From: Candidatus Hermodarchaeota archaeon
GTDB lineage: Archaea; Asgardarchaeota; Lokiarchaeia; Sigyniarchaeales; SOKP01
Assembly: GCA_048885925.1 (NCBI GenBank)
Contig: JBHLLG010000042.1
Span: 1 to 23,605 of the forward strand
DNA: 23,605 nucleotides
Direction: 5' to 3'
Part shown: one piece after another, positions 7,046 through 23,605 of the stretch
How the letters are laid out: the number at the start of each line of letters is the position of its first letter
Numbering within the stretch: position 1 is the first letter of the stretch
Program-made: the position numbers and the translations under genes
Notes under the pieces: model-generated
What the model was told of the DNA's origin: nothing
The model's input: only the letters and a program-made list of their open reading frames with translations
The model's database searches: none

Positions 7046-9997
7046 CTATGGAATGAAGATATCAATGTGCTTTGTAGTTTTTCTAGCTATATCGAATTGA
7101 TCTCTATAATGTAATTCCAGTTTAATTTCATCAGCAGTTGGATCGAAAAGGTTTTTCTTAAGTTCTTTTTGTTTATCTACTTTAAGCACATAATTAAACA
7201 GAAAGTTTTTCCCCGGTTTTAATTCGTTGATTTGAAGAAATTTTGGAAAACTATCTTTTCGTTGAAAGCTAAGATAAGAGGGTATTTTCAGCGATATTTG
7301 TAAATCTTTAAAATCAAAATTAGAAGGATTAGTTAATTTAAAGTTAAGGTATATTTCATTTCCTATAGTTTTTATATTCTTAAAGAAAAGAATTTCTTTA
7401 GAATCTGTGATTTCAGATTCAATTTGTTGATAATAAAGTGTATCATTGAGGATTTTGGCATTTAACTTATTTTTATTTATAAACTTAAGAACTACATCTC
7501 TTAATTTGTCAATATCTAATTTGATGTAATTTCCAAGTAATTCTAATTTAATAGGATTAATAATTTTAAGATAATATTTGATCTGATTTAGATTTAATGA
7601 ATTATTTGCTTTTCTAACAAATGTTTTTAATCGATTTATTAATAATTCTTTTGAAGCATTAAATTTATTGAGATAAGGTCGAATATATAAGTTAAATATG
7701 TTGTTATCTTCAAAAATTTTTTCTTTTCCTAAAATTGCATCAATTTTATTTTCTGCTTCTTCAATATAATTTTGTATTTGAGTGGAACTCATCCCAATTA
7801 ATCTTTTTGCGTCCGAAAATTCATTCTTTTTGAATAAGAAATCTAATTTGGCATTTAACCTCTCAAAGTCATCGTTTAGTCTCTTCATTCCTTCAATTTT
7901 CTCTGTAATAATAGTTTGAAAGTGACCTTGAAGAAGTTGGTAATTTAGTTCAGTACTAATCCCATTAATTTCTATACTTTTCGAACTTTCTATAATCTCT
8001 CCTGGTTGAATTATGTATTCAATTAACTTATCTTTCATTAACTTAATATGCCGATCTAAATCACTCAAATATTCTTGAATTTCAATTTTAGTTTCAACCC
8101 ATTTCTGTAAAAGATCTTTAAGGATTTCATTAAATTCTACATTATCGATAAGTAATTCTCTGATTTCATTGTCGAGGTTAAACAATTTTTTCCTAATTTG
8201 GGTTACATAAGCAAGTTTCTCATCTCTAATATCATTTAATTCAATCGCAGATATTTCTTCGTCAATATTTATTTCAAGTTTATTTTCTTTTACAAATTCA
8301 AATTCTGCTTTTAAGATTTTAATACGATTAAGAATAACATTAATAGTTTCCTTTAAATTAGAAATAAATTCTGATTTTTTCTCTTCACATATCTCAGAAA
8401 TAAAGCTTTTAATAATACTTAATTCTTCAATAATTTGTACTCGGGTTTCTTCCCAATCTTCAATCAAATCAAAGGCTAATCTTTTATAATCGAATCTTTT
8501 AATAATATTATCAAATTTCTTAATTTTTTTAAGAATCTTGTTATATTTTGTATTTAATTGAATTTCTGTATCGTTGAATTTGAAATTTTCAATATATGAA
8601 TTTAATTTTTCTCTAAATTGAGCAGGAATTTTTTGAAATTCAACAATTCTTTTTTGAAATAGAGATAATTCATTATTTATTCTTTCAATCGCACTATCGA
8701 TCCCTGTGAAGTTAGTTTTTATATTTTTTAACGTATGAATAATTTCATTCTTAACCTCAGGATCTTTTTCAATACTTAAAGCTTTATTCAATTCAATTGT
8801 AATCCAAACTGCAATTTTTTTATTTTCTAAAATAAAGCATATATTTTGTATTAAGACAACATTTTTTTTTCGTTCTCGCCAGAAGCGTGATTCTAATTGA
8901 TACAAAATTTTAGTGATTTCATTTTCTATTTCAATCTGGAATTCTTCAAATAAACGTTTAAATACTAATGCAATACCTTCCCTAATATTTTCAGAGGGAT
9001 TTTCCAATTCTTCAAATAAATAAGGAAAAATTTCAGTAATATGTTTACGGCAAAGATGAAATATTGCATTTATTAATGAATTTCTATAATTCAAATCACT
9101 TGCTTCTAACATAGAATGTAAAAGATTCGCCCAAATTTGATCAAAGTTATTTTCTGCGATACTAACAAGAGCCTCAATAACTTTTAATTGAATACGATAA
9201 TCTGTTTCTTTTAATAAATTAATCAATTTCGGAATTATAGAGATTATTTCTGATGATTTTTCCTTGCCAATTTCTCCAAATAACCAGATAATAAGCTCTT
9301 TAACTCTATTTTTTTCATTATAGAGAAGATTCAAAAGAATATATAGGATATTTTCTTTTGTTAGAAAATAGGTTCCATGGATTTTTAATAGTTCCGCAGC
9401 TGCTCTAGCGACATCATCATCTTCATCTCTAAGATTAATTATAACCATTGATAATAGAGGCTCTAATTCTCGAATTTTTGTATAATCCTGATTTAATATT
9501 TTCTGGATAGTCTTTATTACATTTAATTTTACTTTCCAATCATTATCCATTAGTTTTTCTGTATATTCTTCAATAATTTCCTGTAATTGATCAATATCTA
9601 GATGTAAAGATAGAATGAGATTTCCAATAATTTTTACTGTTAATCTCCTTACAGAGGGATCCTGATCGTATAAACGAGCCCGAATTTTATTTAATAATTC
9701 AATTAATAAATTTGGTCTAAATAAACTTATTTGGTATGAAATTTCTAACGATACTAATCTGATCCAAGAATCAGAATCATTGATAAACTGATTGATATTC
9801 TTTATTGCTCTCAATGATATTGTGGGAGATTTATCACAGATTAAATTTAATAAACTAAGACTTCGATAAATAAGCTCCTTATAAGAATGATTTTCGTAAT
9901 CTTCGATTAAGCTAAATATCTCTTCTGCGGCTTTTTCATTATGACCTTTTAGAATTAAGATCTCTATTTTTTCAGTATCTAAGCTTATTATTGTCAA
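7046..9997 (-). CDS. HEAT-repeat protein with coiled-coil, PCI-like winged helix and C-terminal Ig-like appendage (adaptin/coatomer-like architecture)
   Basis: HEAT units (DSDSWIRLVS, DQDPSVRRLTV, DNDWKVKLNV, DEDDDVARAAA, ETDYRIQLKV); long helical middle; IKLELLGNYIKLDIDKLRDVVLKFINKNKLNAKI (PCI-like); beta-rich end with LTNPS...LKIPSYL...LKPG...LELHY. Start moved from GTG 10159 to TTG 9997 (uncertain). Confidence 0.75.
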   Translation of the reverse strand: MTIISLDTEKIEILILKGHNEKAAEEIFSLIEDYENHSYKELIYRSLSLLNLICDKSPTISLRAIKNINQFINDSDSWIRLVSLEISYQISLFRPNLLIELLNKIRARLYDQDPSVRRLTVKIIGNLILSLHLDIDQLQEIIEEYTEKLMDNDWKVKLNVIKTIQKILNQDYTKIRELEPLLSMVIINLRDEDDDVARAAAELLKIHGTYFLTKENILYILLNLLYNEKNRVKELIIWLFGEIGKEKSSEIISIIPKLINLLKETDYRIQLKVIEALVSIAENNFDQIWANLLHSMLEASDLNYRNSLINAIFHLCRKHITEIFPYLFEELENPSENIREGIALVFKRLFEEFQIEIENEITKILYQLESRFWRERKKNVVLIQNICFILENKKIAVWITIELNKALSIEKDPEVKNEIIHTLKNIKTNFTGIDSAIERINNELSLFQKRIVEFQKIPAQFREKLNSYIENFKFNDTEIQLNTKYNKILKKIKKFDNIIKRFDYKRLAFDLIEDWEETRVQIIEELSIIKSFISEICEEKKSEFISNLKETINVILNRIKILKAEFEFVKENKLEINIDEEISAIELNDIRDEKLAYVTQIRKKLFNLDNEIRELLIDNVEFNEILKDLLQKWVETKIEIQEYLSDLDRHIKLMKDKLIEYIIQPGEIIESSKSIEINGISTELNYQLLQGHFQTIITEKIEGMKRLNDDFERLNAKLDFLFKKNEFSDAKRLIGMSSTQIQNYIEEAENKIDAILGKEKIFEDNNIFNLYIRPYLNKFNASKELLINRLKTFVRKANNSLNLNQIKYYLKIINPIKLELLGNYIKLDIDKLRDVVLKFINKNKLNAKILNDTLYYQQIESEITDSKEILFFKNIKTIGNEIYLNFKLTNPSNFDFKDLQISLKIPSYLSFQRKDSFPKFLQINELKPGKNFLFNYVLKVDKQKELKKNLFDPTADEIKLELHYRDQFDIARKTTKHIDIFIP

Positions 9998-10155
9998 TGT
10001 AGTAGGGAGATATGTAATTTTAAAAAATAATCCTTCAATAATTTGTTCTGTTAAACTAATATAAATATGTTTTAATATAATTATGGCAAATAAAAAATAC
10101 TGAAAAAAATAAAGAAAATTAGTAGATTTAAGAAATGGTGATATAAATTTATAAT

Positions 10156-10704
10156 TCACTCAAAAAGTTCAATAATTGCTGTACCTGGAGTAGCTACTCG
10201 TTCGCGATAAGTTAAGATCCCTTCAGATACTTCTTTTTTTTTTACTAAACCTCTCTCAACATCTTTTTCAGAAATATAACCTCTTTCACCAGCTTCAAAC
10301 TGCTTTTTGATAGCTCCATTTGTATCTTTAATATCAACATTAGTTATTGTCGTTTGCTTTACATCTAAATATACTCTTTTGCCTTCAATTTTATTAATTG
10401 TTGCTTCTGTAATCAAAAGGTCCCCGCATCTCACCATTCCTCTCATTTCAACTTCAAGTTCAATTATTTTTCCATATGTTCCATATTCAAGAAATTCATC
10501 CAATAGTTTAGTTATAAATCCTAACGAAAATAACCCATGTGCAATTACTCCTTTAAGACCCGCTTTAATTGCAACCTCATCATTTGTATGAATAGGATTA
10601 GTATCACCAGAGGCTTTTGCATATTCTCGCAATAATTCTCTTGTAATCCCATCAAATTCACTCTTTAAAAATTGTCCTATCTTCAATTCTGAGATTTTAA
10701 CCAT
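10156..10704 (-). CDS. MaoC-family (R)-specific enoyl-CoA hydratase/dehydratase, catalytic subunit
   Basis: Hydratase-2 motif YAKASGDTNPIH...VIAHGLF. Confidence 0.9.
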   Translation of the reverse strand: MVKISELKIGQFLKSEFDGITRELLREYAKASGDTNPIHTNDEVAIKAGLKGVIAHGLFSLGFITKLLDEFLEYGTYGKIIELEVEMRGMVRCGDLLITEATINKIEGKRVYLDVKQTTITNVDIKDTNGAIKKQFEAGERGYISEKDVERGLVKKKEVSEGILTYRERVATPGTAIIELFE

Positions 10705-20814: not shown

Positions 20815-21462
20815 ATGGTTCAAGAAACTGAAAAACAAATTGAAGTAAATGGGAGAGCTAAAGAAAATATTTTTCGCGCTACCGAAATAATTATGAACAA
20901 TCTTAAGGATAATGTTGAACATCTCAAAAAAGACAAATATTTCAAATACACTCAAAAATTTATTGAATTGGTCCATGATGGTATAATCAATAAGAGAAAA
21001 TTTTTTTTACTTGCTTCTGGAAGAAGTGCTTTTATTCTTCAATGCTTTGCTACTCGTCTTGTTCATTTTAATGCTGAAGTTTATGTAGTAACTAATTTAG
21101 GTTCGATACCAGCATTAACAGAAGAAGATATATTGATAATTTTATCAGGTTCAGGAACAACTGAAATTGTTGTATCCCTTTTGAAAAACTATGTAAACAC
21201 AGTGAAGCCATATGGAATAGTATCTATCACTTCACATCCAGAATCTATTATTGGTCGTATATCTGAAATAACAATTAAGTTAAAGGGAAGAACAAAACGA
21301 GATAGACCAGATCCTCAAGATGATCAAGCAATATTAACAACAGAAGGAACACAATTTGAAATAGCTGCATTTGTATATCTTGATTCAATAATAGCTGAGT
21401 TGGCTGTTAGAATGGGAAAAACTAATGAAGATTTGTTGAAAAGACATGCAGAATCTATATGA
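20815..21462 (+). CDS. hxlB: 6-phospho-3-hexuloisomerase (SIS domain)
   Basis: ASGRS, FATRLVH, SGSGTT, EGTQFE, C-terminal RHA. Confidence 0.85.
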   Translation: MVQETEKQIEVNGRAKENIFRATEIIMNNLKDNVEHLKKDKYFKYTQKFIELVHDGIINKRKFFLLASGRSAFILQCFATRLVHFNAEVYVVTNLGSIPALTEEDILIILSGSGTTEIVVSLLKNYVNTVKPYGIVSITSHPESIIGRISEITIKLKGRTKRDRPDPQDDQAILTTEGTQFEIAAFVYLDSIIAELAVRMGKTNEDLLKRHAESI

Positions 21463-21472
21463 TCTTTATTTA

Positions 21473-21482
21473 TTTTTTTTTT
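21473..21482 (+). terminator. Oligo-T terminator after hxlB
   Basis: T10 run 10 nt after the stop, between convergent genes. Confidence 0.55.
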
Positions 21483-21567
21483 CTTTTGTAAACTTGAATA
21501 ATAAATTTAATCTAAATCAACTAATAGATACAGAAATTTTCGAAATTTTATATCTAGATCAAGTTAT

Positions 21568-21960
21568 TTATTCAAAATTAAATTCTTGATTTAAACTAGC
21601 TAATTGCCTCTCAAATTCTTCTTTTAATAAAGTATAATATGTATATTTTCCCTTTTTCCATCCACGAATTAAACCTACTTTTTCTAATTCGCGGAGATGA
21701 TGAGAAATTGAAGGTTGAGATTTATCAAACATTGCTTCGAACTCACACACACAACGATCGTTATCCTTTAATGCAGTTAGTATAGCTAAACGTTCTTTAT
21801 TACCTAAAGCACTAATAAATGATGTGAGAGAATCTAGATTTTGATCTGATTTTAATTCTTTTCCTATTTGCTGTAGATCCTCGAAGTATTTATCACCATT
21901 AGTGCAACCATCACATCCACATAATGTCTCCTTTATTTTTTTCTTTCTTTCTAACTTCAT
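21568..21960 (-). CDS. arsR: ArsR/SmtB-family metalloregulator (alpha3 CxC site)
   Basis: ALGNKERLAIL, RCVCEF, SQPSISHHLRELEKVGLI, KKGKYTYY; extra N-terminal CGCDGC. Confidence 0.9.
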   Translation of the reverse strand: MKLERKKKIKETLCGCDGCTNGDKYFEDLQQIGKELKSDQNLDSLTSFISALGNKERLAILTALKDNDRCVCEFEAMFDKSQPSISHHLRELEKVGLIRGWKKGKYTYYTLLKEEFERQLASLNQEFNFE

Positions 21961-22044
21961 TTAAATATCATTGTATTTTTCTGTTGTTATTAATATAGAA
22001 ATCATTAAATTATAAAAATTTTATTCATATTTATAAACCTAGAT

Positions 22045-22068
22045 TCACATCGAAATATTTTTATATGA
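22045..22068. promoter_or_regulatory. Putative ArsR operator overlapping a BRE/TATA-like promoter
   Basis: TCACATCGAAAT|ATTTTTATATGA, 9 of 12 positions symmetric; contains CGAAA...TTTATAT. Confidence 0.6.
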
Positions 22069-22151
22069 GCTATTCTATTAATATTTTAACCTATTAAAAA
22101 ATGAAAATATTAAATCTAAAAAGTTAAAAAAAATTCTAAGAGGGATAATAT

Positions 22152-22292
22152 ATGAAAAAGTCAAATATGAAAGATGCTAAAAGGGAGAATTCACTCAAGA
22201 TCGATACAGAATTTCGTGGTTCTGCATGTTGTGGAGGTTCTAAAAATCAACTTGATAATAAAAACAAAACAGAAAAGAAGATTAATAATTGA
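22152..22292 (+). CDS. Small 46-aa peptide with CCGG motif (not in ORF track)
   Basis: MKKSNMKDAKRENSLKIDTEFRGSACCGGSKNQLDNKNKTEKKINN*; purine-rich AGAGGGA upstream; lies between the operator and the methyltransferase fusion. Confidence 0.6.
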   Translation: MKKSNMKDAKRENSLKIDTEFRGSACCGGSKNQLDNKNKTEKKINN

Positions 22293-22362
22293 ATTTTAGA
22301 GTTATTATAAAATAATAAAAATTGAGTTTTAAAACTTTAATTTAAAAGAATTTCGTGGGTTT

Positions 22363-23605
22363 ATGGCAGTTACTTATATGCGAAAGTTAGAGGAAGAACC
22401 AGAATCATACGATTCTAAATTCACTGCTTTAACAAAAGGAGTAAATGTTGAAGTTCAGAATTGGGTTATTGATAAAATTAATACTTCGGAATCTATATTA
22501 GAAATTGGGTGTGGTACTGGAGCGCTTGCTACAAAAATGGCATTAAAAGGAAATAATGTCATAGCTATTGATAAAAATGTTCAAATGATTAATTATGCTA
22601 TGAAAAATTTTCCATCTGATTTATCTAGTGGAAAGCTTCTATATCAAATAGGATCATTTACTCTTTTACCTGTAAAAGAACATTCTCAAGATGTTGTAGT
22701 AAGTACATTTATGTTATCAGAACTTCGTCCTTTAGAACAACAAATTTTTCTTAGAAATGTATGGAAAGTATTAAAACCCAATGGACGCGTGATTTTGGCA
22801 GCTGAATTTGTACCATCCGGATTTTGGAAATTGCCCTTTCTACTTAAGAGATGGCGATATAGAAAGAAGTTAAGACGTTTACGCATAAGGAGTACTCATT
22901 TAATAAAATGGTTTTTTAACTATTTAGATCCTATAGGGTTCAAAATCTCTAACCAAAAGATATGGAAACATGGTTCCATCCAAACAATAGAGCTACAAAA
23001 AATTGATGATATTGCAGGAAATGAAGCCGGCTATTATAGACCAAAAATAAAAAAGTTTAAGGGTTTACGATCTCAATTAAGAATTTATCGCTGTATTTTC
23101 ACTGGACAAATCGATAGAGTACCAATTGAACCAGGAATTTATCAATCTGGAAATCCCAATGAAAAATCGCCAATTATTGTAACTGCTAATTATGATTTTA
23201 CATATATTAAGGTTATGCGCGATCTTAAAGGAATTGATGCTTGGATATTATGTGTAGATTCAAATGGCATAAATGTGTGGTGTGCTGCTCGTGGTGATGA
23301 TTTTGGAAACATGCAACTTCTTGAGGCAGTAGAAGCTACAGGAATAAGGAATATAACTGAAAAAAAGACATTACTTCTACCACAACTCTCAGCTGGGGGT
23401 GTAGCAATACCTGAACTTCCTATTAATTCGGAAAAGTTCCCATTTAGAGTTAAATTTGGACCAGTTTGGTCAAAACATCTTCCTAAGTTTCTTGAAGATA
23501 AACCAGCTAAAAAGCCTGAAAAAATGAGGTTAGCTAAATTTACATTATTCCATCGAATTCGCGCAGTAATAACTCATACTACATTTTTATTTCGAAAATT
23601 ATTCG
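22363..23605 (+). CDS. Class I SAM methyltransferase fused to an HgcA-like corrinoid-binding domain (3'-truncated by the window; not in ORF track)
   Basis: Open for 414 codons to the edge; ILEIGCGTG, IAID, DVVVSTFMLSE, LKPNG; then PIEPGIY..GNP..SPIIVTANY, DSNGINVWCAARG (Cys307 at 23281), PQLSAGGV, FRVKFGPV, MRLAKF. Confidence 0.9.
   Translation, partial: MAVTYMRKLEEEPESYDSKFTALTKGVNVEVQNWVIDKINTSESILEIGCGTGALATKMALKGNNVIAIDKNVQMINYAMKNFPSDLSSGKLLYQIGSFTLLPVKEHSQDVVVSTFMLSELRPLEQQIFLRNVWKVLKPNGRVILAAEFVPSGFWKLPFLLKRWRYRKKLRRLRIRSTHLIKWFFNYLDPIGFKISNQKIWKHGSIQTIELQKIDDIAGNEAGYYRPKIKKFKGLRSQLRIYRCIFTGQIDRVPIEPGIYQSGNPNEKSPIIVTANYDFTYIKVMRDLKGIDAWILCVDSNGINVWCAARGDDFGNMQLLEAVEATGIRNITEKKTLLLPQLSAGGVAIPELPINSEKFPFRVKFGPVWSKHLPKFLEDKPAKKPEKMRLAKFTLFHRIRAVITHTTFLFRKLF

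What the first reader, a model, noticed from the sequence alone, without database searches (positions are those of the whole stretch)
22363..23605. SAM-methyltransferase fused to an HgcA-like corrinoid domain
Seen: one continuous frame, missed by the ORF track, joins a class I SAM MTase (aa ~1-215, ILEIGCGTG) to a corrinoid domain. That domain follows HgcA motifs (TANY, D-x-x-GINVWCAA, PQL-x-A-x-GV, F-x-V-x-F/YGPV, MR..F) rather than CdhD/CdhE. The cap helix is NVWCAARG, against the canonical N(V/I)WCA(A/G)GK. Established: HgcA methylates mercury via a Cys-ligated cobalamin, and paralogs with variant cap helices have uncertain substrates. Inference: a single-polypeptide SAM-to-corrinoid-to-acceptor methyl relay for a metal(loid) such as Hg, As or Se. 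The MTase has no ArsM-type catalytic cysteines.
Basis: partly seen in the sequence, partly recalled or inferred. Interest (0 to 1): 0.85.

Follow-up and report, generated by a model that had tools for sequence, protein, structure and literature searches.

The report
Methyltransferase-fused HgcA relative, cut by contig end
This Asgard archaeon carries a real, widely conserved gene, cut off here by the end of the contig, that joins a SAM methyltransferase to a membrane-bound vitamin-B12 protein related to the mercury-methylating enzyme HgcA; in relatives it sits with an HgcB-like ferredoxin, often in arsenic-resistance operons, so it probably methylates a soft metal or metalloid, but this is untested.

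Summary
ORF 22363-23604 (+) is 414 aa and open at the contig end. It joins a class I SAM methyltransferase (aa 1-216) to an HgcA-type corrinoid domain with cap helix NVWCAARG (Cys307).

It is not an artefact. Of 119 listed homologs, 114 are 541-578 aa Asgard proteins with both domains. Contigs of four other public runs read on past the window's end.

The missing ~140 aa form five transmembrane helices, as in HgcA. No HgcB domain is fused. A separate HgcB-like ferredoxin gene follows in 33 of 33 related loci that have downstream sequence.

The protein scores below the curated cut-offs of HgcA, HgcAB-like and CpaM. In the tree it forms its own clade (100/99), outside canonical HgcA and outside the HgcAB-like clade.

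An ArsR-type regulator lies divergently upstream here. Of 36 related loci, 20 have ArsR and 15 have an ACR3 arsenite pump. This genome has no ACR3.

Best reading: SAM to cobalamin to a thiophilic metal(loid), with arsenic the likeliest acceptor. The substrate is inferred only.

It is a new variant of the catalogued CpaM/HgcAB-like module. This scan has reported the same family at least seven times on other DNA.

The parts
22363..23604 (+). Truncated gene (414 of about 553 codons) for a methyltransferase / HgcA-like corrinoid / membrane protein. It is cut by the contig end.
   Evidence: It is 92% identical over 414 aa to the full-length P0003 of 552 aa. Contigs of other runs read on past 23605.
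22363..23010 (+). CpaM-like class I SAM methyltransferase domain (aa 1-216). It has motif I ILEIGCGTG (22495-22521) and an acidic D70 (VIAID, 22558-22572).
   Evidence: Pfam. NCBIfam CpaM NF043040 scores 140.7 bits over profile 3-215/216, against a cut-off of 180. Invariant residues in 48 rows are M6, L9, E10, G49, G51, G53, D70, D110, E120 and G141.
23011..23118 (+). Linker (aa 217-252), including a helix at aa 235-246 in the model.
   Evidence: AF2 model of P0003.
23119..23544 (+). HgcA-type corrinoid-binding domain (aa 253-394).
   Evidence: NCBIfam HgcAB_like covers aa 253-407 and HgcA aa 254-402. PF03599 also matches. The best fold match is the deposited HgcAB model 9a0b_A.
23272..23295 (+). 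Cap helix NVWCAARG with the putative cobalt ligand Cys307.
   Evidence: N304, V305, W306, C307, A308 and A309 are invariant in 48 of 48 aligned fusions.
23545..23604 (+). Start of the first long membrane-domain helix. The other helices are missing from the window.
   Evidence: The AF2 model of P0003 has helices 395-427, 435-458, 464-487, 490-514 and 520-551. Hydropathy peaks agree.
21568..21960 (-). Divergent ArsR/SmtB-family metalloregulator (130 aa). It has an N-terminal CxCxxC (C14, C16, C19) and a CVC (C70, C72) in the DNA-binding domain.
   Evidence: NF033788 scores 68.9 bits, above its cut-off of 55. Homologs lie upstream in 20 of 36 related loci.
21961..22362 (.). Divergent A+T-rich intergenic region, presumably holding both promoters. 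It has several short imperfect palindromes.
   Evidence: No Rfam match at E <= 0.1.

Best explanation
What it is: the ORF is the 5' three-quarters of a conserved Asgard gene for a three-part membrane enzyme. The parts are a CpaM-like SAM methyltransferase domain, an HgcA-like corrinoid domain whose cap-helix cysteine (Cys307) ligates cobalt, and a five-helix membrane domain that is missing here.

Its partner: it works with a separately encoded HgcB-like 2x[4Fe-4S] ferredoxin. That ferredoxin carries a GCGC motif and a C-terminal Cys-Cys pair.

Proposed cycle:
1. The ferredoxin reduces cobalamin to Co(I).
2. The fused methyltransferase domain loads a methyl group from SAM onto cobalt.
3. The Cys-ligated methyl-cobalamin passes the methyl to a thiophilic metal(loid) held by cysteines.

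An ArsR-type repressor next to the gene switches it on.

Most likely acceptor for the family: As(III) or a related metalloid, rather than Hg(II).

My odds: architecture and partner, about 0.95. SAM-to-cobalt-to-acceptor relay, about 0.6. Arsenic-type acceptor, about 0.4 for the family and lower for this genome's subclade.

Shown here: domains, motifs, conservation, synteny and clade. Inferred: every chemical step and the substrate.
For: Domains and motifs.

Fusion conserved: 114 of 119 listed homologs are 541-578 aa and carry both Pfam domains. Intact full-length frames occur in family f1 genomes, where 33 of 40 have a match.

The gene continues in nature: contigs of X1 and X13 read on in frame past 23603, and records of X2 and X3 overrun the end.

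Membrane domain: the model has mean pLDDT 91.0, pTM 0.87 and five long C-terminal helices. The best fold match is the deposited HgcAB model 9a0b_A, at E 2.8e-12 over 318 columns.

Ferredoxin partner: an HgcB-like gene lies 30-118 nt downstream or overlaps the gene's end (L037), on the same strand, in 33 of 36 related loci. The other 3 loci end within 16 nt of the gene. Its best NCBIfam family is HgcB, at 53.6 bits. It has two CX2CX2CX3CP motifs, GCGCLW and a terminal CC.

SAM-binding residues and Cys307 are invariant in 48 of 48 rows.

Domain-domain fold test (methyltransferase against corrinoid domain): weak support.
- Median score 0.39, best of 3 controls 0.00.
- Partner pLDDT at least 78, and the runs agree in at least 70% of contacts.
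- The mark was reached by 58 of 80 solved complexes and 2 of 110 mismatched pairs.
- At 0.60 or under, only 7 of those 80 solved complexes and both mismatches reached it.

The same two functions also occur as adjacent genes (CpaM 282 bits, HgcAB-like 398 bits) and as a triple fusion (259 and 373 bits) in the same phylum.

Canonical HgcAB takes its methyl from SAM through methyl-Cob(III) with a Cys thiolate ligand (Zheng 2024).

Metal(loid) context:
- ArsR next to the gene here.
- ArsR in 20 of 36 loci, and ACR3 in 15 of 36, of which 13 are directly upstream.
- ACR3 scores 276.9 bits against a cut-off of 282.8, and the ArsC-like protein 138.7 bits.
- An ArsM-like ORF lies directly upstream in L113.
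- In ND132, an ArsR-like regulator that responds to As and SAH controls hgcAB (abstract).
Against: Weak arsenic link in this genome: no ACR3 was found at E <= 1e-10 in the 95%-complete assembly. The only local arsenic link is the regulator.

Incomplete context in the family: 16 of 36 loci show no ArsR and 21 of 36 show no ACR3 within the sequence held. Four loci have MarR instead. These loci are kin, so the counts are not independent.

Possible redundancy: L113 has an ArsM-like gene beside the fusion, which could make a second arsenite methylase redundant.

No function transfer by family: all three NCBIfam scores are below the curated cut-offs.

Role of the methyltransferase domain is unproven: canonical HgcAB uses SAM without any class I methyltransferase domain. 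The fused domain might act on something other than cobalt.

The fold test gave only weak support.

The C-terminal part and the ferredoxin gene of this genome are not in its assembly.
Confidence: 0.55

Rival explanations
1. It is a mercury methylase like canonical HgcAB, with its SAM-binding function moved to a fused domain.
For: It has the HgcA-type domain with the invariant Cys, the five-helix membrane domain, and an HgcB-like partner with a C-terminal Cys pair. HgcAB uses SAM. Asgardarchaeota are listed among putative methylators in sediment surveys.
Against: HgcA scores 146-172 bits against a cut-off of 275. The cap helix reads RG where HgcA has GK. The clade lies outside the canonical HgcA clade, which has 99/95 support, and on the side that holds the fused HgcAB forms. 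The tested member of that side did not methylate Hg. The neighbours are ars-type genes, not mer genes.
Confidence: 0.1
2. The acceptor is not a metal(loid). The enzyme methylates a membrane-bound organic molecule such as a lipid or quinone, or uses its corrinoid for reductive dehalogenation of halomethanes.
For: The membrane domain is conserved. The methyltransferase fold is closest to lipid and quinone methyltransferases, namely PmtA 8ys9, UbiG, Coq5 and UbiE-type enzymes. Heterologously expressed HgcAB is reported to dechlorinate CCl4 (preprint abstract). 16 of 36 loci have no ArsR, and some have flavin reductases or MarR instead.
Against: The partner ferredoxin, the small neighbour c6 and the regulator are all rich in cysteine pairs. 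ACR3 is translationally adjacent in 13 loci. No lipid or quinone pathway genes are conserved beside the gene.
Confidence: 0.2
3. The two catalytic parts do not form a relay. The methyltransferase domain methylates the substrate or product directly (for example a second methylation), while the corrinoid domain receives its methyl some other way.
For: Canonical HgcA is methylated by SAM with no class I methyltransferase present. The fold test of the two domains gave only weak support.
Against: The CpaM-type methyltransferase accompanies this branch of HgcA relatives in three arrangements: adjacent, N-terminally fused and triple-fused. The methyltransferase domain has no conserved cysteines for binding a soft metal. 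The high pTM of 0.87 points to a fixed domain arrangement.
Confidence: 0.13
4. The fusion is an assembly or gene-calling artefact, or a decaying pseudogene.
For: The gene is truncated, and its 3' part is not found anywhere in this assembly.
Against: The same uninterrupted frame occurs in many independent assemblies and studies. Public runs from 8 studies hold the stretch. Contigs of four runs laid continue past the window end. There are no internal stops.
Confidence: 0.01

Closest known systems
CpaM (NF043040) plus the HgcAB-like fusion protein (NF043039). These are catalogued by NCBI and their function is untested.
   Same: The same two functions are present: a CpaM-type SAM methyltransferase and an HgcA-type Cys-on corrinoid/membrane protein with a 2x[4Fe-4S] partner. 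Bona fide members occur in the same phylum, some in the same genomes as relatives of this gene. This clade falls on the same side of the deepest split of the tree as they do, with 93/73 support.
   Different: The fusion topology is reversed. Here the methyltransferase is fused to the corrinoid protein and the ferredoxin is a separate gene. There the corrinoid protein is fused to the ferredoxin and the methyltransferase is separate. Scores are below both cut-offs, at 141 against 180 and 160-170 against 285. This is a separate clade with 100/99 support. The cap helix reads RG. Many members sit in an ars-type operon.
Canonical HgcA/HgcB mercury methylation pair (NF040863/NF040864; Pseudodesulfovibrio mercurii ND132).
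   Same: The corrinoid domain has the same NVWC cysteine. The five-helix membrane domain is shared. The ferredoxin is separate and has C-terminal cysteines. SAM is the methyl source for HgcAB. An ArsR-type regulator lies upstream.
   Different: HgcA has no methyltransferase domain. Its cap helix reads GK, not RG. The score here is 146-172 bits against a cut-off of 275. This gene lies outside the canonical clade, which has 99/95 support. The ferredoxin scores 53.6 bits against a cut-off of 99 and has an extra GCGC motif.
Corrinoid iron-sulfur protein large subunit CdhE/AcsC (NF003195; PDB 2h9a, 4djd).
   Same: The corrinoid-binding fold is homologous, at E 1e-5 to PDB chains.
   Different: CdhE has no cysteine in the cap region (seen in the CdhE sequences). 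The score here is 71.7 bits against a cut-off of 306. The genome has its own CdhE at 470.8 bits. CdhE has neither a membrane domain nor a methyltransferase.
ArsM, the SAM-dependent arsenite methyltransferase.
   Same: It has a class I SAM methyltransferase fold and occurs in ars operons.
   Different: The score here is 36 bits against a cut-off of 263. ArsM's cysteine set (recalled, not from a call) is absent. ArsM needs no corrinoid.

Membership tests
HgcA (NCBIfam NF040863) | Score at or above the curated cut-off of 275 bits | tested here: not met
   The window fragment scores 146.2 bits. The full-length homolog P0003 scores 171.5 bits over profile 29-318/325.
HgcA (NCBIfam NF040863) | Cap helix N(V/I)WCA(A/G)GK | tested here: not met
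The window reads NVWCAARG. Of 150 representatives, 89 read NVWCAAGKG.
HgcA (NCBIfam NF040863) | Conserved cobalt-ligating cysteine | tested here: met
   Cys307 is invariant in 48 of 48 aligned fusions.
HgcA (NCBIfam NF040863) | C-terminal membrane domain | tested here: met
   The model of P0003 has five long helices, and hydropathy agrees. In the window only the start of the first helix is present.
HgcA (NCBIfam NF040863) | Placement inside the canonical HgcA clade | tested here: not met
   The canonical clade has 99/95 support and 38 rows. The window lies in a separate clade with 100/99 support.
HgcA (NCBIfam NF040863) | Mercury methylation activity | not testable with these tools
   This needs expression and an assay.
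HgcAB-like fusion protein (NCBIfam NF043039) | Score at or above 285 bits | tested here: not met
   159.7 bits for the window and 170.3 bits for P0003. Bona fide members in the phylum score 358-398 bits.
HgcAB-like fusion protein (NCBIfam NF043039) | Fused C-terminal 2x[4Fe-4S] domain | tested here: not met
   The profile is matched only over 14-256/350. No CX2CX2CX3CP motif occurs in the class A representatives. The ferredoxin is a separate gene.
HgcAB-like fusion protein (NCBIfam NF043039) | Placement in the fused-HgcAB clade | tested here: not met
   The window lies outside that clade, which has 99/96 support and 31 rows. It is joined to it only at an unstarred 93/73 node.
CpaM (NCBIfam NF043040) | Score at or above 180 bits | tested here: not met
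   140.7 bits over profile 3-215/216. The next methyltransferase family scores 49 bits.
CpaM (NCBIfam NF043040) | Association with an HgcA-type corrinoid protein | tested here: met
   It is fused in frame.
CpaM (NCBIfam NF043040) | Intact SAM-binding motifs | tested here: met
   The GxGxG motif (G49, G51, G53), D70 and D110 are invariant in 48 rows.
CdhE/AcsC (NF003195) | Score at or above 306 bits | tested here: not met
   71.7 bits. The genome's own CdhE scores 470.8 bits.
ArsM (NF008823) | Score at or above 263 bits and catalytic cysteines | tested here: not met
   36.3 bits. The domain holds one Cys, inside motif I.

The most novel reading that the evidence does not exclude
This clade is a cobalamin-dependent, ArsM-independent metalloid (arsenite-type) methyltransferase. 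The fused CpaM domain charges a Cys-ligated corrinoid from SAM. It would then represent the original job of the HgcA family, with mercury methylation a side activity of one branch.
Probability: 0.3. Interest if true: 0.85.

Novelty: new variant of a known kind. Interest (0 to 1): 0.6.

Why it matters
The natural function of the HgcA family is an open question. Mercury methylation gives no known benefit, and links to arsenic and to halomethanes have been proposed.

This lineage bears on that question in three ways:
- The fusion points to which domain would bind SAM in this branch.
- Many members sit behind an ArsR regulator and an arsenite pump.

That gives a concrete, testable candidate for a second biological route of metalloid methylation in anoxic sediments, in a phylum that is abundant there.

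I found no paper describing the N-terminal methyltransferase fusion. Lin 2023 trimmed the first 327 alignment positions as poorly aligned. Its supplementary trees, which I could not open, may contain these sequences.

Tried and rejected
Missing 3' part and ferredoxin gene in the genome's own assembly: tblastn with the C-terminal parts of P0002 and P0003 and with the neighbours of two same-genus loci listed no match (only hits of at least 40% identity were printed). The best HgcB-profile hit in the genome, on C167 at 48 bits, did not appear in that search.

Expression: no RNA holder was listed among 24 runs. This says nothing either way.

Riboswitch or other RNA upstream: no Rfam match at E <= 0.1 in 21400-23605.

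Operator: only short imperfect palindromes were found in an A+T-rich spacer. I do not interpret them.

Small 46-aa Cys-Cys ORF in the spacer: no conservation in the 36 related loci (one search used the wrong frame).

Outgroups: 5 of 7 extra CdhE loci were first translated on the wrong strand. After correction they still failed my motif filter. The tree therefore has only 3 CdhE rows.

Rows dropped before the tree:
- 63 of 95 canonical-cap representatives, by taking every third one.
- Representatives lacking the motif or lacking enough flank.

Rows dropped before the context count: 4 duplicate loci and L114.

Gene-calling error: my greedy gene caller missed the ferredoxin in L044 and L045, picking a shadow ORF. 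The tblastn count corrects this.

My scan of genome contigs returned only MAGs, so I could not check this.

Full report
**Observation**

The window is an entire contig, G000:C42. From an ATG at 22363, one frame stays open to the last full codon at 23604. It is 414 aa long.

Pfam finds a class I SAM methyltransferase at aa 45-145 (E 1e-15). It finds the CdhD/corrinoid family PF03599 at aa 239-344 (E 1e-14).

NCBIfam is more specific:
- The C-terminal part matches HgcAB_like (159.7 bits) and HgcA (146.2 bits) far better than the CdhE/gamma model (71.7 bits).
- The N-terminal part matches CpaM, 'corrinoid protein-associated methyltransferase', at 140.7 bits over profile 3-215 of 216.
- The next methyltransferase family scores 49 bits.

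The cap helix reads NVWCAARG. The methyltransferase part has a single cysteine, so it has no ArsM-like cysteine set.

**The fusion is real**

A search of 5.8 billion proteins returned 417 hits. Of the 119 listed besides the query, 114 are 541-578 aa and all carry both domain types. Where they are named, they come from Asgard MAGs.

In 201 genomes of the phylum, 75 have a match at E <= 1e-20, as do 33 of 40 genomes of the window's own family. Full-length frames of 552-586 aa have no stops.

The stretch is held in public runs of 8 studies. When contigs of four runs were laid on it, records of X2 and X3 overran the window's end. The loose ends of X1 and X13 continue in frame with the residues that follow in P0003; I read this by eye from the 30-letter consensus. 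The truncation is therefore an assembly break.

The missing part and the downstream gene are not elsewhere in this 95%-complete assembly.

**What is missing**

Full-length homologs are P0002 (98% identical, 541 aa) and P0003 (92% identical, 552 aa). They end in a hydrophobic domain.

An AlphaFold2 model of P0003, built from a 48-row alignment, has mean pLDDT 91.0 and pTM 0.87. It has five long helices, at 395-427, 435-458, 464-487, 490-514 and 520-551.

Its best match among PDB entries is the deposited HgcAB model 9a0b_A (E 2.8e-12, 318 columns, 27% identity). That entry is itself a computed model, by its title. The methyltransferase part matches ordinary class I enzymes. By sequence, nothing closer than generic methyltransferases and CFeSP gamma subunits has been solved.

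There is no ferredoxin domain in the chain. The HgcAB_like profile is matched only to position 256 of 350.

**Partner and neighbours**

I fetched wider loci. After removing 4 duplicates and one partial locus, I counted neighbours in 36 distinct loci of the window's clade.

The ferredoxin:
- A 88-126 aa ferredoxin gene lies 30-118 nt downstream, or overlaps the gene's end in one locus, on the same strand, in 33 of the 36 loci.
- The other three, including the window, end within 16 nt of the gene.
- Its best NCBIfam family is HgcB, at 53.6 bits against a cut-off of 99.
- It has two CX2CX2CX3CP motifs, a conserved GCGCLW and a C-terminal Cys-Cys.
- This recalls the three HgcB cysteines reported as important for methylation (passage).

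Other neighbours:

| Neighbour | Loci (of 36) | Notes |
|---|---|---|
| ArsR | 20 | |
| ACR3 | 15 | 13 lie 5-62 nt upstream on the same strand; 276.9 bits against a cut-off of 282.8 |
| Small cysteine-bearing protein c6 | 17 | no family match |
| Small cysteine-bearing protein c9 | 16 | no family match |
| LMW-phosphatase-type ArsC-like | 6 | 138.7 bits against a cut-off of 174.3 |
| Flavin reductase-like | 7 | |
| FMN reductase | 6 | |
| MarR | 4 | |

In L113, an ORF that looks like ArsM lies between ACR3 and the fusion. I identified it by eye and did not scan it against families.

These loci are relatives, and some flanks are short, so the counts describe a tendency and are not a statistic.

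In the window itself:
- The neighbour is a divergent ArsR/SmtB regulator at 21568-21960. It scores 68.9 bits, above its cut-off of 55.
- It has CxCxxC near the N-terminus and CVC in the DNA-binding domain. From memory, this is a thiolate-rich arrangement typical of soft-metal sensors.
- Further upstream lie housekeeping genes.
- The same order of PanK-like gene, HxlB-like gene, ArsR and fusion is kept in a same-genus genome. There the ferredoxin and two flavin reductase-like genes follow.
- This genome has no ACR3 at E <= 1e-10 and no ArsM above its cut-off.

**Place in the family**

Four arrangements exist in the phylum:

| Class | Arrangement | NCBIfam scores |
|---|---|---|
| A | The window's clade: methyltransferase fused to the corrinoid/membrane protein, ferredoxin separate | below all cut-offs |
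| B | The same architecture at about 31% identity | below all cut-offs |
| C | Triple fusions of 596-655 aa | CpaM 242-259 bits and HgcAB_like 358-373 bits, above both cut-offs |
| D | Adjacent genes | CpaM 282 bits, HgcAB-like 398 bits |

Several genomes hold A or B together with C or D, so these are diverged paralogs.

I built a maximum-likelihood tree of the corrinoid domain. It has 112 rows and 170 columns, uses LG+C20+F+G4, and has 3 CdhE outgroup rows (the quick version is). It gives:
- All HgcA-type rows against CdhE: 100/100.
- Canonical HgcA with the GK cap: 99/95, 38 rows.
- The fused HgcAB-like clade, including classes C and D: 99/96, 31 rows.
- The window's clade: 100/99, 25 rows. 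It is sister to one class B group at 98/84.
- A and B join the fused clade against canonical HgcA only at 93/73, which is not decisive.

This fits the two-clade picture of Lin 2023. That paper placed Loki- and Thorarchaeota in the 'fused HgcAB' subtree and removed the first 327 alignment positions.

**Mechanism**

Established: purified HgcAB takes its methyl group from SAM in two steps, through methyl-Cob(III) ligated by the conserved cysteine.

Shown here:
- The SAM-binding residues (GxGxG, D70, D110) and Cys307 are invariant in 48 of 48 fusions.
- A CpaM-type methyltransferase accompanies this whole branch in three different gene arrangements.
- The model packs the domains confidently (pTM 0.87).

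A fold test of the methyltransferase domain against the corrinoid domain gave weak support:
- Median score 0.39, best control 0.00.
- Partner pLDDT at least 78, and at least 70% of contacts shared between runs.
- The mark was reached by 58 of 80 solved complexes and 2 of 110 mismatches.
- At 0.60 or under, only 7 of the 80 solved complexes and both mismatches reached it.

Inferred:
1. The ferredoxin reduces cobalt.
2. The fused domain methylates Co(I) from SAM.
3. The methyl passes to a soft metal(loid) bound by cysteines.
4. ArsR controls expression.

The arsenic reading rests on the operons of relatives. It also rests on the reported arsenic and SAH response of the hgcAB-linked ArsR in ND132 (abstract) and on ars genes near hgcAB (passages). 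It is weaker for this genome. Rival readings are mercury, an organic or halomethane substrate, or a methyltransferase domain that does not serve cobalt.

**Novelty**

The components and their partnership are already catalogued as NCBIfam CpaM and HgcAB-like. This topology, clade and operon context are not described in the papers I could search.

I reached the arsenic-operon reading before looking at earlier notes. This scan's earlier reports describe the same family on at least seven other genomes, with the same reading. One of them pointed me to Zheng 2024, which I then read.

**Verdict**

- It is a new variant of a known kind.
- Interest is 0.6. The family is a good experimental lead, but this copy is truncated and lies in the subclade with the weakest arsenic context.

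Noticed in passing
window 22152-22292 (+): A 46-aa ORF lies in the ArsR/fusion spacer, preceded by GAGGG. It encodes a vicinal Cys-Cys (ACCGG). No similar ORF was found in the 36 related loci or elsewhere in the genome. It may be a chance ORF in A+T-rich DNA.
   Followed up: partly
L113 6791-7678 (+): An ORF that looks like a canonical ArsM, with several Cys motifs and an N-terminal Cys-rich stretch, sits between ACR3 and the fusion gene in one MAG. It was found in 1 of 36 loci at E <= 1e-20. I identified it by eye and did not scan it against families.
   Followed up: partly
L040 10207-10479 and 10517-10864 (and 16-17 of 36 related loci): Two small conserved proteins lie downstream of the ferredoxin and have no Pfam or NCBIfam match. 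One has a conserved CxC after a beta-strand-like start and, in some copies, Cys-rich N-terminal tails. The other ends in a conserved Cys in most copies. They may be metal(loid) carriers.
   Followed up: partly
G008, G104, G087, G134, G005 (rows; L067, L071, L068, L069, L070): Several genomes carry both a methyltransferase-HgcA fusion (class A or B) and a bona fide CpaM/HgcAB-like system (adjacent genes or a triple fusion). The two forms are therefore diverged paralogs rather than replacements of each other.
   Followed up: partly
window 7046-10159 (-): A 1037-aa HEAT-repeat protein has a sub-threshold match to the adaptin N-terminal region, at 33.9 bits against a cut-off of 37. It is a possible eukaryote-like signature protein.
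   Followed up: no
L101 (2864-base contig labelled Bathyarchaeota): This contig holds a class A fusion gene at 67% identity, with the ferredoxin and both small proteins downstream. It is probably a mis-binned Asgard contig.
   Followed up: no
G000:C167 374-745 (+) and 1587-1754 (-): This 3.7-kb contig carries the genome's best HgcB-profile hit (48 bits, 96-aa frame) near a 257-aa methyltransferase. It gave no match to the same-genus locus's downstream genes, and its relation to the window is unknown.
   Followed up: partly
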